From IMG/VR virus record IMGVR_UViG_2695420859_000012: a DNA stretch of 64,000 bases, one strand, 5' to 3'. Positions 1 through 12,736 of this stretch are shown piece by piece. Every line of letters starts with the position of its first letter. Within the stretch, counting starts at the first letter, position 1. Origin of the DNA: a virus (lineage: Duplodnaviria; Heunggongvirae; Uroviricota; Caudoviricetes). The notes under the pieces were generated by a model, which searched no databases, was not told the DNA's origin, and was given only the letters and a program-made list of their open reading frames with translations. The translations under genes were made by a program, and so were the position numbers.

Positions 1-972
1 GCCGTCTTTAATGTACTTCTGTTCAGACGCCCAACTCTTACCGTATGGCGGGTTAGACAACATAAAGTCAAAGCGTGAAGCCGCAAACTCGTCGGTAGAC
101 AAGGTTGAGCCTACCTTGATGTTCTCAGGGTTGTTACCTTTGATCATCATGTCCGATTTACAAATCGCGTAGGTCTCGTCATTGATCTCTTTGCCGTAAA
201 GGTAAATATCTCGGCTGTCGTTCGGGTATTTCTCTTCAATGAAGTTTTGAGATTCAGTGAGCATACCACCGCTACCACACGCAGGGTCGTAAACGGTCAT
301 GGTCAATGGTAGCTGCTCTTTCACTGGGTCAAAAACCAAGTGTGTCATCAGCTCAATCACTTCCCTAGGTGTAAAGTGCTCACCGGCTTCTTCGTTATTC
401 TCCTCGTTGAACTTACGGATCAACTCTTCGAACACGTACCCCATACCCAGGTTAGTAAGGGCTGGCATCTTGTTGCCATCTGGGTCTTCGATCGTTTCAT
501 GAGTTAAGTTGATGTAAGGGGAAACAAACTTTTCGACGACATCAAGAAGGACTTGCTTTGAGGCCATGTGACGAATTTGCAACTTGAGGTTAAAGCATTC
601 AATGATTTCTTTAACATTATCGCTAAAGCCAAGCAGGTACTCTTCAAAGTTGGCGAGTAATATCTGTTGGTTATTCGTTGCGGTGTTGAACAGGGATTTC
701 AGGGTCCATTTAGATGTATTGTAAAAAACATAACCACTAGCCGCCTTCAATGGTTCATCATCAAGCTCCGTGGCTTGCATCTCTTCTTTTTGGAACTTGA
801 CCTCTTCAAGCACGGCTTCTTTGGTGGGTTCAAGTAACGTATCTAAACGTCGTAATACCACCATAGGTAAAATCACATCGCGGTACTTACCGCGAACGTA
901 CACATCACGTAAACAGTCGTCGGCAATGTTCCATATAAATGAGATGAGCTTGTTATGTACACTATGATCCAT
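1..972 (-). CDS. hsdM: Type I restriction-modification methyltransferase subunit (HsdM-like), N-terminal part only; gene runs off the left edge
   Basis: Own minus-strand translation from ATG at 970-972: MDHSVHNKLISFIWNIADDCLRDVYVRGKYRDVILPMVVLRRLD..., FTPREVIELM, SAM motif DPACGSGGML, N6-adenine MTase motif NPPYG; no stop before position 1. Absent from ORF track because open-ended. Confidence 0.75.
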   Translation of the reverse strand, partial: MDHSVHNKLISFIWNIADDCLRDVYVRGKYRDVILPMVVLRRLDTLLEPTKEAVLEEVKFQKEEMQATELDDEPLKAASGYVFYNTSKWTLKSLFNTATNNQQILLANFEEYLLGFSDNVKEIIECFNLKLQIRHMASKQVLLDVVEKFVSPYINLTHETIEDPDGNKMPALTNLGMGYVFEELIRKFNEENNEEAGEHFTPREVIELMTHLVFDPVKEQLPLTMTVYDPACGSGGMLTESQNFIEEKYPNDSRDIYLYGKEINDETYAICKSDMMIKGNNPENIKVGSTLSTDEFAASRFDFMLSNPPYGKSWASEQKYIKDG

Positions 973-1134
973 TTTCTTTTCCTGTTCAGTGTTGGTTGCA
1001 CCCCACAAAGTTGCTGCAACGGCTTCACTATAAATTTAAAATTCTGTTCTTTCTGTAACGCCTAAATGGCCTCTACATCGTTCGATTAACTTGTTCTACC
1101 CGGCGCTAGATTTAAGTTTATGACACCATAAAGT

Positions 1135-1176
1135 GAATCGCCACAGGTTTAATAGACTGAATCGCCACAGGTTTAA
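1135..1176. repeat. Two 18-bp direct repeats (gaatcgccacaggtttaa) separated by 6 bp, upstream of hsdM
   Basis: Exact copies at 1135-1152 and 1159-1176. Confidence 0.6.
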
Positions 1177-1204
1177 CAGACACCTCAGAGTCATTTAAGA
1201 TGAC

Positions 1205-1396
1205 TTAAAGAGAGGTGTACAGCTCGGTATTCAGACCAGTCCACTGACGGCCAACGCCGACAACTTCACCGATACCTTTGTCTTCACCCAATTTGTTTAC
1301 TTTGATGCCAACGTACCCAGGCTCAACACGATCGCAGCCTGTAAGACCCATTGTGCAAACAGCAGCCACGATCACTGCCAGTAAACCTTTCTTCAT
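1205..1396 (-). CDS. Small lipoprotein, function unknown
   Basis: 63 aa; signal peptide with lipobox LTGC (MKKGLLAVIVAAVCTMGLTGC). Confidence 0.5.
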   Translation of the reverse strand: MKKGLLAVIVAAVCTMGLTGCDRVEPGYVGIKVNKLGEDKGIGEVVGVGRQWTGLNTELYTSL

Positions 1397-1399
1397 TAC

Positions 1400-1600
1400 T
1401 TACTTCCCCTTCGAATTAATTAGTGACTTCAGAAAGTTACGACCAACATTAAAGCCGATAACAGGAGCGCCAAAAGCAACAATGATTCCAAGCATTACGG
1501 CAATATCGCTTTTAGCCGAGATCAGCGACGGAACCAGCAAACAGTAGATGAAAACTACAGATATACCTGTAGCCACTGCCATCAGATAGAGTTTGATCAT
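1400..1600 (-). CDS. Small hydrophobic membrane protein, function unknown
   Basis: 66 aa, two hydrophobic segments; abuts the lipoprotein gene. Confidence 0.4.
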   Translation of the reverse strand: MIKLYLMAVATGISVVFIYCLLVPSLISAKSDIAVMLGIIVAFGAPVIGFNVGRNFLKSLINSKGK

Positions 1601-1690
1601 GTGTTTTCCTATGTGGCTATTGTGTGTAGATGGTGAGTAAGTGTTTATATATTTTCAAGGTATAAAGGCGTCCATTCGGACGCCTGAAAA

Positions 1691-4030
1691 TTAATCTTCT
1701 AATTCATCTGTCGGTGATGTCTTCTCGCGCCTGTCATCTATTGCCTGTAACGCAGCAATGATTTCAGCTAATGGCTTCTCCCGGTACATCTCGACGATCT
1801 GTGATTTGGTGTATTTCTTCTCGCCAATTTCCACACGCCCGCTGGCGCTCTTGGGCAGGTATCCTTCCTCCAGCATGTATTCAACCAGAGACTCGACGAC
1901 GTCCAGCCCGCGAGTCGGGTCGAAGTAGAATTTCCATGAGCATTTGCCAAACGGAGGCGCGACTTTGTTTTTAATGCACTCGGCGCCAACGTCCTGTCCG
2001 ATCTTCTCTTTGCCATCCTTCATGACGGATGCACCCAGACGGATGCGCACCGACGCGTAGAACTTCGGAGAGTCGCCACCCGGAGACGTAGTCGGATCGC
2101 CAAACATCACACCAATTTTGGTACGCACCTGGTTCAAGAAGATGATGCACGCGTTGTACTTACGCGCCCAAAGCGCCAGAGTAGGGAAGTTCGCACTTGT
2201 CGCGCGCGCCAGCGCCGTGTTGTCGTTCATGTTCAGCTGATCTTTGTCTTTCGCAGTGCCTTCTGCCATCTTGTCGAACTTCTCAGCCTTCGAGTTCGGA
2301 ACCATCGACGCCAGAGAGTCGGCTACGATGCAGATAGGGGCTGTTTCCGGAATAAGCTCTTCGTCGCGCACCAGCTTGAGGATTGTGCCGATCAGCTCTA
2401 CGGAGTCTTCGAAGGTATCCGGCTGTTTGTAGACCCACTGACCGTCATCCTCATCTGCGTTCAGGCCATTGGCTACAGCCAGGCCAACGTCAAAACTGTT
2501 TTCATGATCGAGGAATACCGCCAGACCATCTTGTTTTTGAGCGGAGATCATCGCTGCTGTTGCAAGGAATGTGTTGTGGCTGATAATCCCGTTAGACCAG
2601 AAAGAGTGTGTTTCCGGCATCGCTACGTCGAACGTTGGTGCTTCACCTTCCTCAATAGCCACGACTTCGTCGTAGAACAAGTTAGAGCCAATTACCGCTG
2701 CCAGTTGTGCAAACAGATGCTCGTTAAAACGATTCTTTCTGCCAATGAAGGAGACATAGATTTCTCGCAGTTTGTCTATTCCGACACGATCGCCGCGGCC
2801 AATAACGTGGTCTACCAGAGCGTAGTCTTCACGGGTGGTCTTGGTGAGCGACTCGTAGAGTGATTTCACTAAGCCGCTGATGTGCGGAACATAGCCTGAG
2901 TAAGTGCGGTCAAAACCAATGTCCCGTTTGGTTGCCACTGATAAACGTGCCGGAGATTCGAAACCAATCGTTGACAGAAAAAGGTCGTAATTAGAGCCAC
3001 TGAATGACAGCCGGTAATATGTATTTTCATAACCCGCGACGTGTTTTTCAGAGATAGTTGACGTAATCCCCAGATTCAGGAGCATGAGGCGAATTTGCTG
3101 TAGCAGCAGCCCACTCGCGCTCACAACCTCAATGCAGCGACCATCATTGACGTGGCATTCCAGCTCAAAGTAGCCGCGAAGGAATGCAATTTGAGCCTCG
3201 CTATTGGCGCGACGCACACTCAACGGAACCTGCTTGCCAGCAGCTTTCTCATACTCCAGACCATATTCTTTAAAAAGCAGCGAACGCACCTCTTTGCTAA
3301 ACAGCACATGGTCTTCCGAGCCGTTATGTTTTCTCGTAACTGGCATCTTGTCTGATACCAGCGAAATGAGGCGGTAGTACTCATCCTTGATGAAAGGATC
3401 TGTGTTAGAAAAATTCACTGAATTTTCAGAGGCGACGTATCCGTCAGCAATTAAATAGCCCATCAGTTTTGCGATATTGGCATCCAGGTGCTGATCGCCG
3501 AATTGATGTGTGCCAACCATTGAAGGAATCGTGTCGCCTACACTGATTTTTTCAGCATGTCGCCAGACGACATTACCTAAGTCGTCAACCACACGGATTG
3601 GGTGACGGAACGTAGCCTCGATATAACCGCCTGATGCCAGCTTAATACGCTTGAATTTGCGACGGTTGTTCCATGTCAGGTGTGAGGTCTTCTCTATCAC
3701 GCCATTTTCATTGATGAGTCCAACGTTATGCTCTACATCGCGAGTAGTGCATGTCGCTTTGTACCCTTCAATCTCAAACAACTCTTTCACTGTTACCATT
3801 CCACGCTCCGTCAGCAGCATGGTGTCTGCGGTAACACATTTCCCTGCACTTGGAGGACCGAATACTTCGACGATACGACCACATGGGAAGCCGCCATCGT
3901 AACGACCAGAAATAGCTTTGTTTAACGGTGGAAAGCCTGTATCAATCCAATGAGTTACTTTCTGAATTTCGTCGTTGCTACCGATTTTCTTTTTCAGAGC
4001 AAGTGCCAGTGCGGATTTTCCTTTTGCCAT
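1691..4030 (-). CDS. recA: RecA-family recombinase interrupted by an intein in the Walker A P-loop
   Basis: N-extein ends GRIVEVFGPPSAGK, C-extein resumes TFLATAAM... and contains IIFLNQVRTKIGVMFGDPTTSPGGDSPKFYASVRIRL, closely matching bacterial RecA as recalled; exteins total 357 aa. Confidence 0.85.
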   Translation of the reverse strand: MAKGKSALALALKKKIGSNDEIQKVTHWIDTGFPPLNKAISGRYDGGFPCGRIVEVFGPPSAGKCVTADTMLLTERGMVTVKELFEIEGYKATCTTRDVEHNVGLINENGVIEKTSHLTWNNRRKFKRIKLASGGYIEATFRHPIRVVDDLGNVVWRHAEKISVGDTIPSMVGTHQFGDQHLDANIAKLMGYLIADGYVASENSVNFSNTDPFIKDEYYRLISLVSDKMPVTRKHNGSEDHVLFSKEVRSLLFKEYGLEYEKAAGKQVPLSVRRANSEAQIAFLRGYFELECHVNDGRCIEVVSASGLLLQQIRLMLLNLGITSTISEKHVAGYENTYYRLSFSGSNYDLFLSTIGFESPARLSVATKRDIGFDRTYSGYVPHISGLVKSLYESLTKTTREDYALVDHVIGRGDRVGIDKLREIYVSFIGRKNRFNEHLFAQLAAVIGSNLFYDEVVAIEEGEAPTFDVAMPETHSFWSNGIISHNTFLATAAMISAQKQDGLAVFLDHENSFDVGLAVANGLNADEDDGQWVYKQPDTFEDSVELIGTILKLVRDEELIPETAPICIVADSLASMVPNSKAEKFDKMAEGTAKDKDQLNMNDNTALARATSANFPTLALWARKYNACIIFLNQVRTKIGVMFGDPTTSPGGDSPKFYASVRIRLGASVMKDGKEKIGQDVGAECIKNKVAPPFGKCSWKFYFDPTRGLDVVESLVEYMLEEGYLPKSASGRVEIGEKKYTKSQIVEMYREKPLAEIIAALQAIDDRREKTSPTDELED
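2573..3838 (-). mobile_element. Intein (about 422 aa) with LAGLIDADG homing-endonuclease domain, inside the recA P-loop
   Basis: Begins with Cys immediately after GPPSAGK and ends ...IISHN followed by Thr; LAGLIDADG-type blocks LMGYLIADGYV and FLRGYFELECHVNDG. Confidence 0.8.
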
Positions 4031-4032
4031 GA

Positions 4033-4305
4033 TCAGGCTCCTTTTGTTTCGTTGATTCGTTTTAAAGCGGCGGATTCATCGAATACAATCGCATCGTGGT
4101 TAAGGAGTCTGGATACACGAGCGAGGATTTTTACGACCTGCTCGCTGACTAATCCAAACTCGCGATCTGTCGCTTTCATTCCGGCAGCGCCTAGAATTGA
4201 CGGCAGTGCGATGACAGCGTACTCACCGTGATAAAAGACAATCTCTTTTGCCAGTTGGGCAGGGGTGGTTGTAGCGCCATTAATAATTGATTTAAGCATT
4301 AGCAA
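4033..4305 (-). CDS. Hypothetical protein
   Basis: 90-aa ORF packed between exonuclease and recA genes. Confidence 0.4.
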   Translation of the reverse strand: MLMLKSIINGATTTPAQLAKEIVFYHGEYAVIALPSILGAAGMKATDREFGLVSEQVVKILARVSRLLNHDAIVFDESAALKRINETKGA

Positions 4306-5294
4306 TACCTTTCGAATGGAAGAACATACACTTCAAGGTCTTCAAGGAACGAACGGAAATTCAGCTCGTAGCACAGTTGCTCGAATGCTTTCACGTCACG
4401 ATTGCCTTTGATTGTTTCGATTTCGGTAGGCGGAAACTTCGTCTCAATCAGGTTCATTAGCGTGATGTTTCTCTTGAACGCTTCGAGCATTCGACAGCCT
4501 GTTTTCTCGTTGAAGGCATTCTTCGCTAGTTTGTTGAAGGCGGTCTTATGGCGTCCTTTGTCAACCACGATTGAGCCGTCGTTGATGCCGCGTACCATCG
4601 TTGCGACACTTCCCCATTCATGCAGCAGCTCTTTCGCACCGCCAGCACCAATGCCACCAACACCGCTAATGTTGTCCGATTTATCGCCTTGTAATGCTTT
4701 TGCTTCCAAAAATGCGCGAGGAGTAGCGAATCCTGTCAGCTCCGCAAATTGCTCAAAATTAACCTGCTTGTTTTTGGCGTCTTCACGCAGGCTTACCCAG
4801 CTTACGTTTTCACGAACTAACTGAAGCCAGTCGCTATCGCCTGTTAACAGATAGATGTGTTCAACGGTTGGCTGCGGTGCCATGCGGGATACCAGCAGCC
4901 CGGCCAGATCATCCGCTTCTGCATCTTTTGCAATGAGTTGGGTAACTCCAAGCGCGGTCATCATTTTGAGGATGTATGGCTTCTGGATAGCAAAGCCTTC
5001 CTTCATCTTTTTCATATCAGGATCGTCGTCGCGATTTGCTTTGTAGTCCGGGTAAAAGTCGCGACGCTTGTCACTAAATCCATCCCAAAGAATCATAGGT
5101 CGGGCATGGAGGATGGAGGCATAACGACGGACGTTCTTAACAAAGCCGAAAGCAGCCTGTACTTCCATTTCGCCGTTGTGCAATTTGTCAGATTGTTGGT
5201 GGTAATAACCCAGGCTATTGCCATCTACGAAGAGATAATTCACCGGTACATTCCTTCCAAAAAGTAAGGCGTCCGTAGACGCCTTACTGGTCAC
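4299..5294 (-). CDS. 5'-3' exonuclease / flap endonuclease (FEN, RNase H-like)
   Basis: AKDAEADDLAG acidic motif and H3TH-like GDKSDNISGVGGIGAGGAKELL. Confidence 0.75.
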   Translation of the reverse strand: MTSKASTDALLFGRNVPVNYLFVDGNSLGYYHQQSDKLHNGEMEVQAAFGFVKNVRRYASILHARPMILWDGFSDKRRDFYPDYKANRDDDPDMKKMKEGFAIQKPYILKMMTALGVTQLIAKDAEADDLAGLLVSRMAPQPTVEHIYLLTGDSDWLQLVRENVSWVSLREDAKNKQVNFEQFAELTGFATPRAFLEAKALQGDKSDNISGVGGIGAGGAKELLHEWGSVATMVRGINDGSIVVDKGRHKTAFNKLAKNAFNEKTGCRMLEAFKRNITLMNLIETKFPPTEIETIKGNRDVKAFEQLCYELNFRSFLEDLEVYVLPFERYC

Positions 5295-5303
5295 GTAATG
5301 GGA

Positions 5304-6332
5304 TTACAGAGAGTCCAGCTCTCTCAGTAGGTCATCCAGACCTTCATCTTCCGTCGCAGATGCGGCTGCTACAGATGTCGTTGCGACTGCTTCAGACTCT
5401 TTGACTGATACTGCAACGGCAGCGGGACTTGCTTCTGGTTTAAATTCAGTTTCAACGGCACGGAGGATTTCTTCATCAACCAGACTGGTTGGTTCAGAAG
5501 CTGGGGTATGAGCGGTAGCTACAGCAGTCGCACCCTCCGTATGACCAGTGACAGAGCCAAATCCAGGTAGTGCCGCAGCCGATGTTTTCGCGGTTGAGGA
5601 AATTGCTGGTGCAGATGCTGCGGCAGTTGGTGCAGCGATGCCAATCAGACGACCCATAGTGCGAACTGTCGACAGAAGACGAGTTTCATCAGCCTGATTT
5701 GCGTATGCGATCAGATCATGCTGGGTATTCCAGAATTTATCTTCGATATCGCCTTTGTAGACTTTACGCTTAGGCGAGACGTCATATTTGGTATCGCGAC
5801 CAGAGCCAGTACGTTTAATCAGGAATGCGTAGCCTTCCTCTTTGCTCAGTGGATTGCCGATATCATCAGCGATGTCTTCGGTGATTGCTTTGCAGATATC
5901 ATCGAATACAGTAGACGGCAGCTCGATTAACTGGCATTTCTCAGCATCTGCGAAATCCTCACGAGCAGAAAGAATGCCGTTGACCAGGTAGCGAGGAGTG
6001 GCACGCATTTGACCGATGCGTTCTTCCATTGCTTTGTTACCCTTGTGACGAGCGCGACCTTCCATCACCATTTCGCATAGCTGACAAGCGCGACCGTGAG
6101 TATGTTGCTCACAAATATAAGCGTTGGTTGCTTCTTTACCTTCCTCGTTCTGATACTTAACGTAGTGCATACCGAAAGTCTGGAAGAACTTACCGTTTGG
6201 GTCGTCTTTATTCGGGAAGATGCGGATATAGTTGACGCCGTCTTTTAAGCGAGTCAGATCAACGTTGTTACCACGTTTGGCGGCAATGTCTTCACGAGTT
6301 TTGTTAAGCAAATCAAGTAATGTCTTAGACAT
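5304..6332 (-). CDS. Single-stranded DNA-binding protein, T4 gp32-like
   Basis: Recalled similarity to T4 gp32 around the zinc-binding region (IRIFPNKDDPNGKFF...CEQHTHGRACQLCE); Ala/Ser/Thr-rich acidic C-terminal tail. Confidence 0.6.
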   Translation of the reverse strand: MSKTLLDLLNKTREDIAAKRGNNVDLTRLKDGVNYIRIFPNKDDPNGKFFQTFGMHYVKYQNEEGKEATNAYICEQHTHGRACQLCEMVMEGRARHKGNKAMEERIGQMRATPRYLVNGILSAREDFADAEKCQLIELPSTVFDDICKAITEDIADDIGNPLSKEEGYAFLIKRTGSGRDTKYDVSPKRKVYKGDIEDKFWNTQHDLIAYANQADETRLLSTVRTMGRLIGIAAPTAAASAPAISSTAKTSAAALPGFGSVTGHTEGATAVATAHTPASEPTSLVDEEILRAVETEFKPEASPAAVAVSVKESEAVATTSVAAASATEDEGLDDLLRELDSL

Positions 6333-6449
6333 GTGTTTCTCCTTGTTGTGATTTGGCCGATGGCGCTATGCGCGTTGGGCTTTCGTTCATTCGTGGCTCT
6401 TTCGAGCTGTTAAATGATAGATCAGTACTTACTTATTATCTATCAAAAA

Positions 6450-6905
6450 TCAACGGGGAGTAATAAAGCGTTCAGAGCCTAATCGCTCTAATTCAACGAT
6501 GGCCATCTTTGACGCCTGAACGATCATGTCTCGGCGATGCGAAAAGGCGGCGACAGCATGTTTGTATATGTCTGCGATGTGCCGTGCTTCATCCAACTTC
6601 TGCCTTTTAGACAGATACTGTGGGTTTGTTTTAACCTTAGCGTCCAGTACAGATTCGTTGAACTTAATGCCGTTCATACTCAAGTTCTTACGCTCTGTGT
6701 CGTATAGCTTTGCTTCAACAGCTTCAAGGTTAAGTTTTGCCTCTGCGACACTTCTTTCTGCATGAGCGAGTTTTGAGCCATACTCCATTAAAAGGCGGGG
6801 TTGTCTACGCCAGACTTCCTCCAGATTGTCTCGGTCAAACTCGAGATCAGACATTATTTTCTCGTAAATATCGGCGATCATGCACATTTCCTTATCACTT
6901 ATCAT
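6450..6905 (-). CDS. Hypothetical protein (position suggests a replication/recombination accessory)
   Basis: 151-aa ORF between SSB and DnaE genes. Confidence 0.4.
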   Translation of the reverse strand: MISDKEMCMIADIYEKIMSDLEFDRDNLEEVWRRQPRLLMEYGSKLAHAERSVAEAKLNLEAVEAKLYDTERKNLSMNGIKFNESVLDAKVKTNPQYLSKRQKLDEARHIADIYKHAVAAFSHRRDMIVQASKMAIVELERLGSERFITPR

Positions 6906-7007
6906 TTTGTATTGATTATATCATTGTAATGATGAGGCAATGAGCTTGAAGATAGGGGGGGTGAGGGGATAAGGGAAAACATGGCCTTTATGGCCATGTT
7001 TATTGGA

Positions 7008-8177
7008 TCACGTCTTAATAGTTTCTGCTACGTCGGCTAATATCGCTTCTAGTCGTTCTCCCTCTTCAGGTCTGAAGTAAAGAATGTTGGGGTTAAACCC
7101 GTAAAAGACAGTAACGTCAAGGTCTGGAAGATACTCCTTCCTGCCGACCAAATCGGATGGCTTGTTTTTGTTGTTAAACAATGAAGTTGCCCGGCTGCCA
7201 CACGTCAGCACATAGGTCGGACGCACCAGATTGATCTCTTCACGCATAAAGTCGGTGAACTGGCCGATCTCGTCTTTGGTGTAGTCTTTTTCTTTGTCTT
7301 TAACCTTCTTGCAAACACCTGTGACATAGAGATCGCCCATGCGTAAATCTCCAGCCGTCAATAGCTTGGCCTTAAAGTCGTCGTATCCGTTCTCCATAAA
7401 GTAACCGGTTCGAGCATCATTGCCGTTCGCATTGTCCAGAATGATCATGATTTTCGGCTTAATACCAATGCTGGGGCGGATTAGTTCATCACCTAAGCCC
7501 ATTTCAGCCGCCATCCGCGTCATGAGTACGTTAATTTCAGCCGAACGTTTGGGGTTCATCTCAAACGGACGTGAGGCTTTAACTGCGTCTATGACAAGGT
7601 TTCCCATCAATTCAGCCTGGTCGCGTAGGCGCTCTGGATCAGTTGCTGGCAGACTGCCTGGCTCGATGGATGCAAACGCCCCTACTTTTTGCAGCGATTC
7701 GCGCACTCGACTATTACAGGCACGTTTCTCGACAGCTTCTTCGAATTGCGCCAGTGACTCGAATTTGCCGCCAACTTTTTCTCGCGCTCTCATGATGGCT
7801 TGGCAGCCATTCTCAGAACACCCCTTCACAGCAGAGAAGGGCGCATACAGCACCTGGCTGCCATCTTCAAGCGTGCGGATCTCGATTCGGTTAGATGACA
7901 CGTTAACGTCTGGTGGCAATACGCGAATGCCATAGGTCAGCGCATCTTTAACCAGCCCCTGGTGTTTATCTTCGCCAAGAATAGTGAGAGCAGCAGCGAA
8001 AAACTCTGCGGGATAATGAGTTTTCAACCACATAGATTGATAACTGATTAAGGAGTAAGCAACAGAGTGTGATTTGTTGAAGGCATACGCGCCGGATTTC
8101 TCAAACATATTCCAGATTTCTTCGGCTCGTTCGTGCGTCAGGCCATTGCTCTCTTCGACAACACCGGTAATTTTCAT
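7008..8177 (-). CDS. dnaE: DNA polymerase III alpha (DnaE-type), C-terminal fragment
   Basis: ERAEEIWNMFEKSGAYAFNKSHSVAYSLISYQSMWLKTHYPAEFFAA matches the DnaE finger region as recalled; GAGG 7 nt before the ATG, which overlaps the HNH stop (ATGA). Confidence 0.8.
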   Translation of the reverse strand: MKITGVVEESNGLTHERAEEIWNMFEKSGAYAFNKSHSVAYSLISYQSMWLKTHYPAEFFAAALTILGEDKHQGLVKDALTYGIRVLPPDVNVSSNRIEIRTLEDGSQVLYAPFSAVKGCSENGCQAIMRAREKVGGKFESLAQFEEAVEKRACNSRVRESLQKVGAFASIEPGSLPATDPERLRDQAELMGNLVIDAVKASRPFEMNPKRSAEINVLMTRMAAEMGLGDELIRPSIGIKPKIMIILDNANGNDARTGYFMENGYDDFKAKLLTAGDLRMGDLYVTGVCKKVKDKEKDYTKDEIGQFTDFMREEINLVRPTYVLTCGSRATSLFNNKNKPSDLVGRKEYLPDLDVTVFYGFNPNILYFRPEEGERLEAILADVAETIKT

Positions 8178-8908
8178 GCAGTCACCTCATCAATCTTCAC
8201 GAACTCATACCCATTGGAGGCCAGCCAGTTCCGTTGGCGCTCCCAGCTCCATATCTCTTCACGCATTTCACTATGCAGGCGAATGTGGGCGTCTTCTGGA
8301 AGTGCTACAAGATTCCCAGGGGCGTTATCTATCGTATCGCGGTTAATATGGTGGACATGTTCATCGTCACGTAGCTCCCGACCGAGACGTTCTTTCGCTA
8401 TCAATCGATGAACGTATTCGTATTGCGAAACGCCATTGTTACCAACCAGCTGCATCATGTAGCCGTTGGTTTTTACGATGATGCCACCTTTGTAGTTGTT
8501 CGCTTCTTCTCCGATCTTTCCGCGTTTGGCAGCCGCCAGCTTTTCCTTCGTCTCCGCGCGGATTGTTCTGCCGGTTAGCTTTTTCGAAACGGTGGCCACT
8601 CGCTCATCGATATCAGCACGCAGACCGGCATTCCACGAGGTTTTCCCATACATAGGGTTGCCAGTGCCAGTCCGGGCTTCGGAGAGACGCTTCATACGTT
8701 CGTCATTATTTTTGTTTTTGCCACGATTCCAGGCTGGGGTAGCGGAGATCCGCGCGCTTCCGCGCCTGATCCCCCATTTGGCTAATAAGCGGTCAATATT
8801 TGCCTTGCTGCAACCAGCTTCGGCGGCAATGTCTTCTTTTCTCATCAGGTCAACCATGTAACGCTGACGTAACCATTCTTCTGTGATTTTGTACTTCGTA
8901 CTCGGCAT
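8174..8908 (-). CDS. HNH homing endonuclease inserted within dnaE
   Basis: HNH motif EHVHHINRDTIDNAPGNLVALPEDAH; separate frame and start. Confidence 0.8.
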   Translation of the reverse strand: MPSTKYKITEEWLRQRYMVDLMRKEDIAAEAGCSKANIDRLLAKWGIRRGSARISATPAWNRGKNKNNDERMKRLSEARTGTGNPMYGKTSWNAGLRADIDERVATVSKKLTGRTIRAETKEKLAAAKRGKIGEEANNYKGGIIVKTNGYMMQLVGNNGVSQYEYVHRLIAKERLGRELRDDEHVHHINRDTIDNAPGNLVALPEDAHIRLHSEMREEIWSWERQRNWLASNGYEFVKIDEVTA

Positions 8909-8956
8909 TTCTAAGACTCACTAAACAAATTGTTTTCTTATCTTATAAATTAATTC

Positions 8957-11320
8957 TCAAATATCGAAGCTCGTTATGTCGGCATTTATTGCCATTGCTT
9001 CGGCATAAGTGCGACGCTCACCATCAGCACAAAGTAGGCGTGCTGCTTTATGGATTTTTCTCGTAGAACCATCATCCAGTGACACTGTCACCCAGCCTTC
9101 CTCCGCTCGCTTAATGAAGTCGCCGCCAATGGATTTCATTTTCTCCATATCTTTTTTCCCGATCGCTTTCCTGACCGAGTCTGCTTCCGCCATTGAGAAC
9201 CCCGCCAAGATTCGCGTAGCAGCCATGATCTGTTCCTGATAAATCAGAACTCCGTTTGTGTCGCGAGAGATGTCGTCCAGCATTGGGTGTAAGGAATGTG
9301 GGGCCATGAAGCCTTTGGCCACGGACACATAATCGTCCAACATGCCGGATTGAATCGGGCCAGGTCGGAAGAGCGCAGTTGTAGCGACGACCGTTTTAAA
9401 GCTCATTGGCTCAATTCCACCACCTAAATCTTTAAGCAGCTTGCGCATTGGGCCTGATTCAAGCTGGAATACGCCCTGTGTATACCCTGCAGCAAAACCA
9501 TCCAGCACCTTGCGATCTTCAAGAGAAATGGCATCAAGATTGATATCTTCACCTGTGTTCTCTTTTATGTAGCGTTTTGCACTATCGAGCAAATCGAGAG
9601 TTGCCAGGCCAAGCACGTCCAGCTTAATTAGGCCCATAGCCTCGCAGTAACGCTTGTCAAATGCGATACAACGCGCGTCACCACGGCGTTCAACCGGTGT
9701 ACGTTCTGTCAGAGGAACACCTGCTACGATCATCCCTGCCGCATGTCTACCAAAGCCACGCATAAGGCTTTGTAACTTGCAGGCTGCATTGAATGCATCA
9801 GGATATTTTGTTGCGTATTTGTCGAGACTTGCCAGTTGTTCGCGCAGCTCTTCCAATGGAAGGCTATCATCCTCGACGTTCTTCAGTTCTTTTGATACCG
9901 CCATATCTGCGGACTCCACACCATAAATACGAGCGGTGTCACGTAGTGCAGAGGCTGCGCCCAGGTAGGTGAAGTTCGGAATGCCTGCAACGTAATCTTC
10001 GCCGTAGCGTTCATTCAGATACTCGATCACCTCATGGCGACGTGCCTGGCTGAAGTCCAAGTCCGCATCCGGCAAGTCGAGACGCTCAGGGTTGATGAAA
10101 CGCTCAAACAGAAGACCGTGACGGATTGGGTCGACGTTGGTTATGCCTATGCACCACGCCACCAGAGAACCGGCAGAGGAACCACGACCAGGCCCGACAG
10201 GAATGCCAGTTTCACGGCTGTGATTCATCAGATCGCGTACCATCAGGAAGTAACCACAAAATCCCAGGCGAGTAAGCGTGTCCATTTCGTACTTAAGTCG
10301 CTCAACATAAACCCTGTTCTCAGAAGCAGGTGGTGTGTATCCAAACTCTTTTGTGGTAAGACGTTTACGCAGCCCTGCAACAGCCAGTTTCATCAGCGTT
10401 GCAGGTTCGTCGTCTGCCATCTTGGGCAGTGCTGGTGGCAATTCATGCCAGCGCCATGTGCAGGCATCGATAATGGAGTCCTGCGTTGTTGAGGCCATTG
10501 CAGCTGTTACCGGCACATCCATGCGAACGGAGAAGGCTTTAAGCGCCTCAAGGAGATGGCGACGACCATTGATGGCGTTATCTCGCTGGTGGGGGATACG
10601 CAGACGATGCGGCTGGTCGATTTTTATGTTGTTCGTAACCATGTGCGCAATGTCTTTAATGTCTGCATCGTCGATCGATTCGTAATAAGCGGGATAGAAC
10701 GCTACTGGCTCTATTTTCAGTGCGCTGGCGACTTTCATCGCCCGGACGTTAATCTGGTCGTAGAATGGGGTAGGGTGCGGATAAACCACACTATAGAAGT
10801 TGTCTTTTCCACCCGCTGTAATCAGTGTGCTTATGATTTTTGCAAAATCGTTGCGTTGGAACACGCTACCGATGTCGGAAGTAAGCAGGATGATGTTGCC
10901 TTTGGCATATGTAGAAACCAACTGTTCGAGCGAGAGACGCGGTACAAAGTAGAACTGTTCTCGTGTGTTGGCCGCCGTCATTAGTTCGCAGATGTCGCGA
11001 TATCCTTTCTCATTTTTAATTAGAGCGGTAAACGAGTAGTTACGTCCTCGCTCTAATGATTCCATACATCTCATAGATTCTTTAGCAAGTTTAGCCCGGT
11101 GCTCGTATGTGGGATCATCAACAATGTTTAGTTTCACACCACAAATAACCGCCATGTCGTCACCAGCGGCACGTTGTAGTGGAATAACGCTCGCAATATT
11201 CATGCTATCTGCTGAAATTACAGCGGTGTAGCCAGCTTCTCTGGCAATCTTCACCGCGTTTTCTGCTTTTAGAGCCGACTCCCCAAGTGAGAAGTCAGTT
11301 CGAACCATCAGTGCCTTCAT
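8957..11320 (-). CDS. dnaE: DNA polymerase III alpha (DnaE-type), N-terminal part
   Basis: GYFLMVRDLMNHSRETGIPVGPGRGSSAGSLVAWCIGITNVDPIRHGLLFERFINPERLDLPDADLDF matches the DnaE catalytic core as recalled; ORF stops 44 codons after the point where similarity to uninterrupted DnaE ends. Confidence 0.85.
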   Translation of the reverse strand: MKALMVRTDFSLGESALKAENAVKIAREAGYTAVISADSMNIASVIPLQRAAGDDMAVICGVKLNIVDDPTYEHRAKLAKESMRCMESLERGRNYSFTALIKNEKGYRDICELMTAANTREQFYFVPRLSLEQLVSTYAKGNIILLTSDIGSVFQRNDFAKIISTLITAGGKDNFYSVVYPHPTPFYDQINVRAMKVASALKIEPVAFYPAYYESIDDADIKDIAHMVTNNIKIDQPHRLRIPHQRDNAINGRRHLLEALKAFSVRMDVPVTAAMASTTQDSIIDACTWRWHELPPALPKMADDEPATLMKLAVAGLRKRLTTKEFGYTPPASENRVYVERLKYEMDTLTRLGFCGYFLMVRDLMNHSRETGIPVGPGRGSSAGSLVAWCIGITNVDPIRHGLLFERFINPERLDLPDADLDFSQARRHEVIEYLNERYGEDYVAGIPNFTYLGAASALRDTARIYGVESADMAVSKELKNVEDDSLPLEELREQLASLDKYATKYPDAFNAACKLQSLMRGFGRHAAGMIVAGVPLTERTPVERRGDARCIAFDKRYCEAMGLIKLDVLGLATLDLLDSAKRYIKENTGEDINLDAISLEDRKVLDGFAAGYTQGVFQLESGPMRKLLKDLGGGIEPMSFKTVVATTALFRPGPIQSGMLDDYVSVAKGFMAPHSLHPMLDDISRDTNGVLIYQEQIMAATRILAGFSMAEADSVRKAIGKKDMEKMKSIGGDFIKRAEEGWVTVSLDDGSTRKIHKAARLLCADGERRTYAEAMAINADITSFDI

Positions 11321-11498
11321 GTGTTTTTACCTTTCTGGTTTTTTTGATTTTGTCATTGGGGAAGCCTACGAACTTCCCATGCATCGAAATCGCAACTTCT
11401 TTTGCTGATTGGTGACAATCGGGCTTGTCTGGACACACCAGACAAGCCTTACCTGTTTCAGAAGCAGCGATAAGAGAGCCGAAACATCCTTTACGCAC
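11295..11498 (-). CDS. Small Cys-rich hypothetical protein
   Basis: 67 aa with CLVCPDKPDC; overlaps dnaE start by 26 bp. Confidence 0.3.
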   Translation of the reverse strand: MRKGCFGSLIAASETGKACLVCPDKPDCHQSAKEVAISMHGKFVGFPNDKIKKTRKVKTHEGTDGSN

Positions 11499-11500
11499 GA

Positions 11501-12736
11501 TTAACCAAATATTTTTTGAACAACTTCACGAGCCGCTTGTGCAGAAGCTGAAGGGAGTTTGTTAATGAAAGAACGCTCAATACCTGTCACAAAGTCGCCT
11601 CGCATCATTCCAATCTTGGCTGACAACAAAAGTTCACGAGGGCCAATTGGCTGACTAATAAGGTGTTCTTCGTATCCATCGCGAACGATACCGGCAAACT
11701 TAACCATCTTTTCAGCGTATTCATCCACGATGCCTGCATTTGTCAACATGTTGATCTCTGCGTCTTTGCTCATGTATTTCACATTCGAAACGATGCCAAA
11801 ACGCGAAAAGTTCGCGGCGTTCTGGATGTTTGTACCCTGGTACAAGCCGGTTTCATCACCAGATCCGTTCGTGTTGCCAGTGCCAATGAAAGCAAACCGT
11901 TCATGCGGAGTAATGCGACGCCATTCTGGAGTTGCCTCTTTGATGACCAACGCTTCACCTTCCAGCACTGGCTGATACACGCCAAGAATTTGTGGAAACG
12001 CAAAGTCGTATTCATCCGCGAGGTAAACCCAGCCATGCTTCATTGCGAGCGCAAGCAAGCCAGGTTCGAAATACGTAGAGCCATCACGCGCCAGAATTTG
12101 CCCCGTAACATGTGCCTCTTCCATTGATGCTGTATGTTGGGCACGGATCAACGGACGATTGAGCAAAGCACATAGCTGTGTAGGCAATGACGATTTGCCT
12201 GTTCCTGCATGACCCCACAAATAGCCAGGTATGCCAAGTTCAAGCATCATGAAAATATCTTTGATCAGTTCGAAGTCGCCATATACGTAGCCCTTCTTCA
12301 CTTCTGGAACGAACTCTGGATACGGCGTATTGACGTTGACGCTAACCATGAGCGGCGTCCCACGTTTTGTTCCGAGTTCTTCCACCGTTACGTTTAGCAG
12401 TTCGTGAGCTGCGACCAGATCTGTCTTGTACTCAACTGTGCCTGTGTAGCCAGGGCTACTGGTCAAGACAGAAGATTTGGCCATTTCGCTTTTTTGCTCG
12501 GCACGTTTAGCTTGAATTGCATCAAGTGCCTTTTTCGATAGCGTTGGTTCATCTGGAAACTGCGTTGTGTACATTTTCAGTACGGTGTCAGGATCGGCAT
12601 CTTTTACTGACTCAGGAATGCCCTCGCAATTACCATTGGCTACATGGGACTTAAAATAGTGAAATGATTTGCCGCACCACTTGCAAACAAGGTAATCAGA
12701 AGGATTTTTTTCATTTTGCAGTGCAGTAGTCGTCAT
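11501..12736 (-). CDS. AAA+ ATPase, MoxR/CobS-like
   Basis: Walker A GHAGTGKSS; N-terminal CxxC; adjacent to a vWA protein. Confidence 0.7.
   Translation of the reverse strand: MTTTALQNEKNPSDYLVCKWCGKSFHYFKSHVANGNCEGIPESVKDADPDTVLKMYTTQFPDEPTLSKKALDAIQAKRAEQKSEMAKSSVLTSSPGYTGTVEYKTDLVAAHELLNVTVEELGTKRGTPLMVSVNVNTPYPEFVPEVKKGYVYGDFELIKDIFMMLELGIPGYLWGHAGTGKSSLPTQLCALLNRPLIRAQHTASMEEAHVTGQILARDGSTYFEPGLLALAMKHGWVYLADEYDFAFPQILGVYQPVLEGEALVIKEATPEWRRITPHERFAFIGTGNTNGSGDETGLYQGTNIQNAANFSRFGIVSNVKYMSKDAEINMLTNAGIVDEYAEKMVKFAGIVRDGYEEHLISQPIGPRELLLSAKIGMMRGDFVTGIERSFINKLPSASAQAAREVVQKIFG

What the first reader, a model, noticed from the sequence alone, without database searches (positions are those of the whole stretch)
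1..1200. Partial type I R-M methyltransferase gene (hsdM) with tandem 18-bp repeats upstream
An HsdM N-terminal portion (DPACGSGGML, NPPYG) lies at the left edge downstream of recA and two small membrane/lipoprotein genes, so the element probably carries a type I restriction-modification system as cargo. Two 18-bp direct repeats (gaatcgccacaggtttaa, 1135-1176) lie about 170 bp upstream of hsdM.
Basis: partly seen in the sequence, partly recalled or inferred. Interest (0 to 1): 0.5.

Follow-up and report, generated by a model that had tools for sequence, protein, structure and literature searches.

The report
IS-borne type I restriction cargo in phage-plasmid
The left edge of the window holds the start of a restriction-modification methylase gene that insertion sequences carried into an SSU5-like phage-plasmid of E. 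coli, and the "18-bp repeats" upstream are two leftover copies of an insertion-sequence end; all of this is ordinary and already annotated in public records.

Summary
Window 1-972 (minus strand) encodes the first 324 aa of an HsdM (HsdM_N plus N6_Mtase domains; motifs DPACGSGG and NPPYG). The repeat is real: a 24-bp unit present twice in tandem at 1134-1181, with an exact 19-nt core.

The window differs by 1 base in 18,421 from E. coli plasmid pSJC33-2. There the gene is a full 809 codons and is followed by intact hsdS, a DUF4268/NucS-like gene and hsdR. So a complete type I R-M system is carried.

It is cargo. An 8.9-kb insert replaces 1,069 bp of the SSU5-like phage-plasmid backbone (compared with phage Cyrano), truncating a DUF7238 gene and the SPFH/stomatin gene.

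The insert has three parts: an IS911-like fragment, an R-M cassette 94-95% identical to a Vibrio gigantis plasmid, and IS-end debris. The repeats are that debris, namely the first 24 nt of an ISEhe3-like IS3-family left end followed by a second copy of the end running 60 nt to 1217. This insertion cut off a WYL-domain gene that precedes hsdM in Vibrio.

The repeats are not part of the native hsdM control region. Novelty and interest are low.

The parts
1..972 (-). 5' part of hsdM (codons 1-324 of 809). It is cut by the window edge, not by mutation.
   Evidence: Open frame with motifs DPACGSGG and NPPYG. Pfam HsdM_N plus N6_Mtase. The full 809-aa ORF WP_032328847.1 is present in the near-identical plasmids. 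It matches PADLOC MTase_I PDLC03029 with E=2e-267.
973..1085 (-). Native hsdM upstream intergenic region, with RBS and presumed promoter. It travels with the cassette.
   Evidence: Conserved with the Vibrio gigantis p1 locus, with a few substitutions. No sigma-70 consensus match on the minus strand in the simple scan.
1086..1133 (-). Remnant of a WYL-domain gene that precedes hsdM in the Vibrio locus: its last 16 codons with the stop.
   Evidence: Window translation SLYGVINLNLAPGRTS* against the Vibrio WYL protein C-terminus ALYGVTNLNLAPGRTS*. Pfam WYL. Homology to Vibrio stops at 1135.
1134..1157 (+). Repeat copy 1: the first 24 nt of the left terminal inverted repeat of an ISEhe3-like IS3-family element, the allele with T at position 20.
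   Evidence: TRF and the repeat finder. The same 24-mer starts natural single IS copies in Enterobacter hormaechei and a MAG. It begins exactly where Vibrio homology ends.
1158..1217 (+). Repeat copy 2, continuing as the IS leader. This is nt 1-60 of an ISEhe3-like IS (IRL, inward promoter-like site, RBS hairpin), cut 3 nt before the orfA ATG.
   Evidence: 100% identical over 60 nt to the sequence immediately upstream of 'ISEhe3 orfA' in phage SfIV. The SfIV right end has the matching inverted repeat TGAATCGCCACAG. Promoter-like site at 1173-1201 on the + strand. The hairpin pairs CACCUC with the GAGGUG Shine-Dalgarno sequence, z=-2.9.
1205..1396 (-). Stump of the backbone SPFH/stomatin-like gene. 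It has 60 native codons, including a lipoprotein-type signal peptide, then 3 codons and a stop read from the IS fragment.
   Evidence: 57 of 60 aa identical to the N-terminus of the 276-aa Cyrano stomatin-like protein. That protein is Pfam Band_7. RefSeq marks the window's ORF as 'SPFH ... incomplete, missing C-terminus'.
1400..1600 (-). Conserved 66-aa membrane protein gene of the phage-plasmid backbone.
   Evidence: ORF list. Annotated as membrane protein in Cyrano, SSU5 and the plasmids.
1691..4030 (-). Backbone recA carrying a LAGLIDADG intein. It shows that the right flank is phage-plasmid backbone.
   Evidence: Pfam RecA, Intein_splicing and LAGLIDADG_3. 94% nucleotide identity to Cyrano from position 1217 onward.

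Best explanation
The window starts inside an 8.9-kb block of foreign DNA that insertion sequences carried into an SSU5-like phage-plasmid of E. coli.

The block has three parts. The first is a fragment of an IS911-like element. The second is a four-gene type I restriction-modification cassette (hsdM-hsdS-DUF4268/NucS-like gene-hsdR) of Vibrio-like origin. The third, at the hsdM-proximal end, is the debris of an ISEhe3-like IS3-family element.

Shown: the gene at 1-972 is the intact 5' part of hsdM. The '18-bp repeats' are two tandem copies of the first 24 nt of that IS's left end; the second copy continues 60 nt into the IS leader and stops at 1217. There it is fused to codon 60 of the backbone SPFH gene.

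Shown: the IS insertion removed the WYL-domain gene that lies upstream of hsdM in the Vibrio locus.

Inferred: the system methylates and restricts like any type I enzyme. An M2S1 complex methylates a bipartite site set by the two HsdS target-recognition domains, and R2M2S1 translocates and cuts unmodified incoming DNA. This would protect the phage-plasmid and its host against competing phages and plasmids.

Inferred: hsdM is transcribed from its own promoter in 973-1085, and possibly also by read-through from the recA-membrane-SPFH' operon, because no terminator lies between them. Expression would no longer be under the WYL regulator.

Inferred: the repeats have no function of their own. Either one IS allele inserted into another at nt 24, or the IS end underwent a local tandem duplication.
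For: HsdM domains and motifs.

Complete intact system in plasmids that are 100% identical over window 1-1300, and 18,420/18,421 identical over the comparable stretch. The other subunits carry the expected domains (Methylase_S; HSDR_N, ResIII/SWI2_SNF2 and T1R_D3).

Cargo: backbone homology to Cyrano resumes at window 1217 (L001 11803) and on the other side ends at L001 2873, so 8,929 bp replace 1,069 bp. No phage record matches window 1-1148. The cassette is 94-95% identical to V. gigantis plasmid p1 over L001 3500-11721, apart from the divergent hsdS stretch 7891-8408. Its GC content is 43.6% against 46.6% for the rest of the window.

IS identity of the repeats: copy 2 plus leader is 100% identical to the 5' end of the annotated ISEhe3 in SfIV and abuts orfA there. 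The SfIV right end bears the matching inverted repeat. Copy 1 is identical to the start of natural IS copies of the T allele. Vibrio homology stops exactly at the first repeat.

The tandem occurs in 56 E. coli complete-genome records, the same number that hold the cassette. One sister plasmid (pM160133_p3) has a single copy with an otherwise identical junction.

The left IS fragment is IS911-like, with a genuine terminus abutting the DUF7238 gene.
Against: The DNA left of window position 1 cannot be read for this exact source. Completeness of the system rests on near-identical public plasmids.

No expression, methylation or restriction data exist here.

HsdM and HsdR score below the curated NCBIfam cut-offs (hsdM 107.5 against 242.75; hsdR 211.6 against 284.55). 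This is a divergent type I lineage, and activity is assumed.

The simple promoter scan found no minus-strand promoter between 973 and 1217.

How the block arrived is not resolved. Neither flanking IS is intact, they belong to different IS species, and the right-hand junction is not an IS terminus. At least one later deletion must be assumed.
Confidence: 0.9

Rival explanations
1. The tandem repeats are operator or iteron-like binding sites (for a controller protein or the WYL regulator) that belong to the hsdM control region.
For: They are exact, tandem, and lie 162 bp upstream of the start codon. They accompany the cassette in all 56 E. coli records that hold it with the tandem.
Against: The orthologous Vibrio locus lacks them, and homology ends exactly at the first repeat, inside the WYL coding sequence. 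The sequence is the terminal inverted repeat of an IS3-family element found at about 1,200 other E. coli sites with no R-M gene nearby. A sister plasmid keeps the system with only one copy. The regulator gene itself has been deleted.
Confidence: 0.03
2. The hsdM is an orphan or decayed remnant, with no functional restriction system in this replicon.
For: Only 324 codons are visible. The surroundings are full of truncated genes and IS debris. NCBIfam equivalog cut-offs are not reached.
Against: The visible part has no stop or frameshift. In pSJC33-2, which differs at 1 of 18,421 bases, and in pNT1F31, all four genes are full length. The same HsdM protein accession occurs in the plasmid and chromosomal copies examined, which argues against decay.
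Confidence: 0.05
3. The R-M system is an ancestral part of the SSU5-like backbone that was lost in Cyrano, SSU5 and PhiR41_1, rather than gained here.
For: 27 PLSDB plasmids from four genera share exactly the same junction, so it is stably inherited in a sizeable lineage.
Against: The block interrupts two backbone genes that are intact in Cyrano (DUF7238 and the 276-aa SPFH gene). It is bounded by IS fragments. It also occurs in E. coli chromosomal islands and other plasmids with different flanks, and in a Vibrio Tn7-like element at 94% identity.
Confidence: 0.02

Closest known systems
Classical type I restriction-modification systems (EcoKI, EcoR124I/II; HsdM structures 2ar0, 7bst)
   Same: HsdM_N plus N6_Mtase gamma-class adenine methyltransferase with motif I DPACGSGG and motif IV NPPY. 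There is a two-TRD HsdS and an HsdR with HSDR_N nuclease and SF2 motor domains. hsdM and hsdS abut within one operon.
   Different: HsdM is 809 aa with a C-terminal extension of about 320 aa that has no Pfam match, against about 500-540 aa in the solved relatives. Sequence relation to solved HsdMs is distant (E 1e-9 to 1e-26). NCBIfam equivalog cut-offs are not met. An extra gene sits between hsdS and hsdR.
EcoprrI-PrrC type locus (a type I R-M with a second defence gene embedded between hsdS and hsdR; own knowledge; PrrC is reported in SSU5- and P1-group phage-plasmids in bioRxiv 10.1101/2025.09.12.675607)
   Same: Same gene order, with an unrelated extra ORF between hsdS and hsdR.
   Different: The embedded protein is not PrrC. 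It has a weak NucS-like nuclease N-terminus and a DUF4268 C-terminus, and matches the PADLOC candidate family PDC-S11. No function has been tested.
ISEhe3-like IS3-family insertion sequence, as annotated in Shigella phage SfIV (NC_022749)
   Same: Window 1158-1217 is 100% identical to the first 60 nt of that element, and window 1134-1157 repeats its first 24 nt. TG terminus. The 13-nt terminal IR is shared with the right end.
   Different: Only 84 nt remain. There is no orfA/orfB and no right end anywhere in the 64-kb window. It is a dead fragment.
Phage-plasmids carrying R-M systems as accessory cargo (P1 with EcoP1I type III; R-M and PrrC reported in SSU5 clade J, bioRxiv 10.1101/2025.09.12.675607)
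   Same: A temperate phage maintained as a plasmid that carries a restriction system in a variable region.
   Different: Here the system is type I, was recently acquired through IS activity, resembles Vibrio sequences, and disrupts two backbone genes.

Membership tests
Type I R-M methyltransferase subunit (HsdM) | N-terminal HsdM_N domain | tested here: met
   PF12161, aa 10-149, E=8e-24, 85 bits against a cut-off of 24.5.
Type I R-M methyltransferase subunit (HsdM) | N6-adenine methyltransferase domain with an AdoMet motif (xxGxG) and catalytic NPPY/F/W | tested here: met
   PF02384, E=3e-35 on the fragment and 4e-60 on the full protein. DPACGSGG and NPPYG are read directly from the translation.
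Type I R-M methyltransferase subunit (HsdM) | Passes the curated equivalog model TIGR00497 (hsdM) | tested here: not met
   107.5 bits against a cut-off of 242.75. It does match the PADLOC type I MTase model PDLC03029 end to end (E=2e-267), so it belongs to a divergent HsdM lineage.
Type I R-M system (complete) | Adjacent hsdS and hsdR genes, all intact | tested here: met
   These genes are not in the window. In pSJC33-2 (1 mismatch in 18,421 nt against the window) and pNT1F31, hsdS is 443 aa and hsdR is 1005 aa, with the expected Pfam and PADLOC matches.
Type I R-M system (complete) | Bipartite m6A methylation and ATP-dependent restriction of unmodified DNA | not testable with these tools
   Requires a methylome and efficiency-of-plating assays.
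IS3-family insertion sequence (ISEhe3-like) | Terminal inverted repeats starting 5'-TG, identical to a known element's end | tested here: met
   60/60 nt identity to the SfIV ISEhe3 left end. The SfIV right end carries TGAATCGCCACAG in inverted orientation.
IS3-family insertion sequence (ISEhe3-like) | orfA/orfB transposase genes and a second end (an intact, mobile element) | tested here: not met
   The fragment stops 3 nt before the orfA ATG. There is no other copy of the end in the window. It is a remnant only.
Composite transposon | Two copies of the same IS bracketing the cargo, with a target-site duplication | tested here: not met
   The left flank is an IS911-like fragment and the right flank an ISEhe3-like fragment. 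Both are truncated, and 1,069 bp of backbone are deleted.
SSU5-like phage-plasmid | Collinear nucleotide homology to SSU5-group phages, plus plasmid replication and phage structural genes | tested here: met
   93-94% identity to Cyrano and PhiR41_1 and 87% to SSU5 from 1217 onward. RepB, partition and replication genes, and tail, capsid, portal and terminase genes are present in the matching plasmid.
PrrC-type embedded anticodon nuclease locus | PrrC homologue between hsdS and hsdR | tested here: not met
   The embedded gene is DUF4268/NucS-like (PADLOC PDC-S11), with no PrrC match.

The most novel reading that the evidence does not exclude
The cassette is a two-layer defence module rather than a plain type I system. 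The embedded NucS-like/DUF4268 protein (PADLOC candidate PDC-S11) would act as a second nuclease coupled to the R-M enzyme, either as a PrrC-like back-up or as a modification-dependent nuclease. IS-mediated loss of the upstream WYL regulator would have turned an inducible Vibrio system into a constitutive one, which the phage-plasmid now spreads among Enterobacteriaceae.
Probability: 0.2. Interest if true: 0.4.

Novelty: already known. Interest (0 to 1): 0.12.

Why it matters
It matters little beyond correct annotation. The work shows that a lineage of SSU5-like phage-plasmids (27 PLSDB records from E. coli, E. fergusonii, Shigella and Enterobacter) carries a complete type I restriction system. 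The system came from a Vibrio-like source through IS activity. This is one more example of phage-plasmids spreading defence genes.

It also corrects two misreadings. The 'lipoprotein gene' is the stump of a disrupted SPFH gene. The 'repeats upstream of hsdM' are IS-end debris, not regulatory sites. The loss of the WYL regulator and the embedded DUF4268 gene are the only points that might merit an experiment.

Tried and rejected
1. Repeats as regulatory sites or iterons: rejected. They are absent from the Vibrio orthologous locus and identical to an IS terminus.

2. Repeats as ends of a Tn7-like transposon (multiple transposase-binding sites containing TGTGG): considered because the Vibrio copy lies in a Tn7-like element. 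Rejected because the sequence matches the ISEhe3 left end exactly and Vibrio homology ends before it.

3. Classical IR-targeted IS insertion as the origin of the tandem: this gives IRL-IRR junctions in inverted orientation (PMC9333248), not direct repeats, so it does not fit.

4. Searching for the IS right end in the Enterobacter copy L007 failed, because that copy is cut after about 220 nt by an IS21-like element. The SfIV copy was used instead.

5. I assumed the window came from pNT1F31. That was wrong, because the sequences diverge from position 2977. pSJC33-2 is the near-identical record.

6. The Rfam gathering scan of 1-12000 found no family.

7. The promoter and terminator scan of 900-1700 gave nothing on the minus strand and nothing above the shuffle expectation.

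8. A simple scenario for how the block arrived (composite transposon, single insertion) does not fit the junctions. This was left unresolved.

9. The large protein-database searches and structure prediction were not used, because the family assignment was already unambiguous.

Full report
**1. Observation**

On the minus strand, window 972..1 is an open frame of 324 codons that runs off the left edge. It contains VYDPACGSGGML and SNPPYGKSW. Pfam finds HsdM_N (aa 10-149) and the first half of N6_Mtase (aa 177-320), both far above their cut-offs.

Upstream on the same strand lie recA (4030..1691), a 66-aa membrane ORF (1600..1400) and a 63-aa ORF (1396..1205).

The 19-mer TGAATCGCCACAGGTTTAA occurs at 1134-1152 and 1158-1176 and nowhere else in the 64 kb. 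Shuffled sequence gives no matches. Tandem Repeats Finder reports one array, 1134-1181, with period 24, 2.0 copies and 95% match. The two 24-mers differ only at position 20 (T against C).

**2. What replicon this is**

From position 1217 rightwards the window is 93-94% identical to the SSU5-like phages Cyrano and PhiR41_1 and 87% identical to SSU5. No phage record matches positions 1-1148.

Window 1-1300 is 100% identical to two E. coli plasmids of about 113 kb, and 27 PLSDB plasmids cover it completely at 97.9% identity or more. In RefSeq complete E. coli genomes, 56 records cover at least 80% of it.

Compared base by base, the window differs from pSJC33-2 (NZ_CP080257.1, from position 95026) at one position in 18,421. 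It diverges from pNT1F31 after position 2977. These plasmids carry RepB and replication genes together with phage tail, capsid, portal and terminase genes. They are phage-plasmids.

**3. The left flank in the near-identical plasmids**

In pSJC33-2 and pNT1F31, hsdM is a full 2430-bp ORF (809 aa, WP_032328847.1). It is followed on the same strand by:
- hsdS (443 aa);
- a 387-aa DUF4268 protein;
- hsdR (1005 aa).

All of these are uninterrupted. Their domain content is as expected:
- HsdS matches Methylase_S.
- HsdR matches HSDR_N, ResIII/SWI2_SNF2 and T1R_D3.
- PADLOC type I models match all three subunits; HsdM matches one of them end to end with E=2e-267.

HsdM and HsdR fall below the NCBIfam equivalog and subfamily cut-offs. 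The nearest solved HsdMs are only distantly related, and none covers the C-terminal 320 aa. This is a divergent but recognisable type I lineage.

The embedded protein has a weak NucS-like N-terminus and matches the PADLOC candidate family PDC-S11. DUF4268 has been noted in association with type IV restriction enzymes and in newly selected defence genes (bioRxiv 10.1101/2025.02.28.640651).

**4. It is cargo, and where its edges are**

BLAST of the plasmid against Cyrano shows that backbone homology ends at L001 2873 and resumes at L001 11803, which is window 1217. So 8,929 bp replace 1,069 bp of Cyrano.

The lost backbone is part of a DUF7238 gene and codons 61-276 of the SPFH/stomatin-like gene. 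The window's 63-aa 'lipoprotein' ORF is 57/60 identical to the N-terminus of that SPFH protein, and its last three codons and stop are read from the IS fragment.

The insert has three parts.

(a) L001 2875 to about 3500 is the right end and C-terminal 211 aa of an IS911-like transposase. Its terminus, TGAAGTG-TCAACAAAAACTGGCC, abuts the DUF7238 gene.

(b) L001 3500-11721 is the R-M cassette. Except for L001 7891-8408 inside hsdS, it is 94-95% identical to plasmid p1 of Vibrio gigantis, where it lies beside TnsD/TnsE genes of a Tn7-like element. Its GC content is 43.6%, against 46.6% for the rest of the window.

(c) Window 1134-1217 is the IS-end debris described in the next section.

The same cassette, with the same repeats, also sits in E. 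coli chromosomal islands with different outer flanks.

**5. What the repeats are**

Window 1158-1217 is 100% identical to the 60 nt that immediately precede 'ISEhe3 orfA' in Shigella phage SfIV. It is 97% identical (58/60) to the corresponding stretch of phage ev099. The SfIV element ends with the matching inverted repeat TGAATCGCCACAG, and it encodes orfA and orfB of an IS3-family transposase. Copy 2 is therefore the left terminal inverted repeat of this IS.

The fragment continues through the IS's inward promoter-like site (1173-1201). It then includes a hairpin that pairs CACCUC with the GAGGUG Shine-Dalgarno sequence of orfA (-17.5 kcal/mol, z=-2.9). It is cut 3 nt before the orfA ATG.

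Copy 1 (1134-1157) is the first 24 nt of the same end with T at position 20. An exact-match scan of one genome per species found that 24-mer at the start of three ordinary single IS copies, so the T allele exists in nature.

Homology to the Vibrio locus stops at 1135, exactly at the first TG. The 48 nt before it (1086-1133) encode the last 16 residues of the WYL-domain protein whose gene precedes hsdM in Vibrio. So the IS landed in the WYL gene, and the repeats are not part of the native hsdM upstream region.

In E. coli complete genomes the tandem occurs in 56 records, the same number that carry the cassette. One further phage-plasmid, pM160133_p3, has identical junctions but a single 24-mer. 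Deletion between the direct repeats most simply explains this.

The origin of the tandem is an inference. Either one IS allele inserted into another at nt 24 in the same orientation, with later loss of everything downstream, or the end underwent a slippage duplication plus one substitution. Classical IR-targeted insertion gives inverted IRL-IRR junctions (PMC9333248) and does not fit.

**6. How it most likely works**

Shown: a complete set of type I genes is carried by near-identical replicons. The visible hsdM part is intact, and the repeats are IS debris.

Inferred from established knowledge of type I enzymes: M2S1 methylates a bipartite adenine target, and R2M2S1 translocates and cleaves unmodified DNA. 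This would protect the host and the resident phage-plasmid from incoming phages and plasmids.

The C-terminal TRD region of hsdS (L001 7895-8410) differs between the phage-plasmid, the XD35 chromosomal copy and the Vibrio copy. Their specificities should therefore differ.

Transcription of hsdM probably starts in 973-1085, which travels with the cassette. No terminator-like site lies between the recA operon and hsdM, so read-through is possible. With the WYL gene gone, any control it exerted is lost.

How the block entered is only partly clear. The IS911-like terminus at the left junction looks like a real transposition end. The right junction, which joins the middle of the IS leader to SPFH codon 60, needs a later deletion.

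**7. Comparison and novelty**

The gene is already annotated as 'type I restriction-modification system subunit M' in RefSeq. A survey of clinical phage-plasmids already reports R-M and PrrC systems in an SSU5 clade from E. coli and Shigella (bioRxiv 10.1101/2025.09.12.675607). IS remnants at cargo borders are commonplace.

Nothing here is new in kind. The most that can be said is that the embedded DUF4268/PDC-S11 gene and the loss of the WYL regulator are untested details of a known type of system.

**8. Verdict**

The repeats are explained as insertion-sequence end debris. Interest is low.

Noticed in passing
window 1691-4030 (- strand): The backbone recA carries an intein with a LAGLIDADG homing-endonuclease domain, inserted in the P-loop (GPPSAGK|C...SHN|T). 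Pfam finds RecA, Intein_splicing and LAGLIDADG_3. SSU5 and the CMS-2020a records match only the extein parts, so the intein is polymorphic in this phage-plasmid group.
   Followed up: partly
window ~7008-11320 (- strand): In pSJC33-2, which differs from the window by 1 base in 18,421, dnaE is split by a free-standing HNH endonuclease gene. The pieces are a C-terminal DnaE piece (7008-8126), the HNH gene (8174-8908) and an N-terminal DnaE piece (8957-11320). pNT1F31 and Cyrano have an uninterrupted dnaE. Rfam found no group I intron.
   Followed up: partly
window 1086-1133 (- strand); L006 11086-12009: This is the last 16 codons of a WYL-domain gene that precedes hsdM in Vibrio gigantis p1. The IS insertion deleted the rest in every E. 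coli copy seen, so a possible regulator of the system has been lost.
   Followed up: partly
L001 6625-7788 (left of the window): A 387-aa gene between hsdS and hsdR encodes a protein with a DUF4268 C-terminus and a weak NucS-like N-terminus. It matches the PADLOC candidate defence family PDC-S11 (E=4e-182). It occupies the position that PrrC holds in EcoprrI-type loci.
   Followed up: partly
L001 7895-8410 (hsdS, left of the window): The part of hsdS that encodes the C-terminal target-recognition domain has no nucleotide match between the phage-plasmid copy and either the E. coli XD35 chromosomal copy or the Vibrio copy. This is TRD swapping, so the recognition sequences are probably different.
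   Followed up: no
L006 (Vibrio gigantis plasmid p1, NZ_AP025494.1 190053-211187): The same four-gene cassette, at 94-95% nucleotide identity, lies beside TnsD/TnsE genes of a Tn7-like element and near a SAVED-domain gene. This looks like a defence-cargo region and points to a Vibrionaceae-like source for the E. coli cassette.
   Followed up: no
L012 (pM160133_p3, NZ_CP022167.1 11500-11900): A sister phage-plasmid has identical junctions but only one 24-nt copy, of the C allele. This indicates either deletion between the direct repeats or a pre-duplication state.
   Followed up: yes
L004 13198-16699 (E. coli XD35 chromosome): In the chromosomal copies the ISEhe3-like leader is cut at window ~1199-1203 by the right end of an IS911-like element, which is itself interrupted by a group II intron (ltrA pseudogene). 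An IS911-like fragment also flanks the other side of the cassette in the phage-plasmid, at 94.7% identity. This hints at a shared history that I could not reconstruct.
   Followed up: partly
window 1182-1217 (+ strand); L002 3020-3080: The IS leader folds into a hairpin that sequesters the orfA Shine-Dalgarno sequence (-17.5 kcal/mol, z=-2.9). This is the usual IS safeguard against read-through expression, and it survives in the fragment.
   Followed up: yes
window 2024-2055: There is a weak 14-bp-period tandem (2.3 copies, 83% match, score 43) inside the recA coding sequence. It is probably chance.
   Followed up: no
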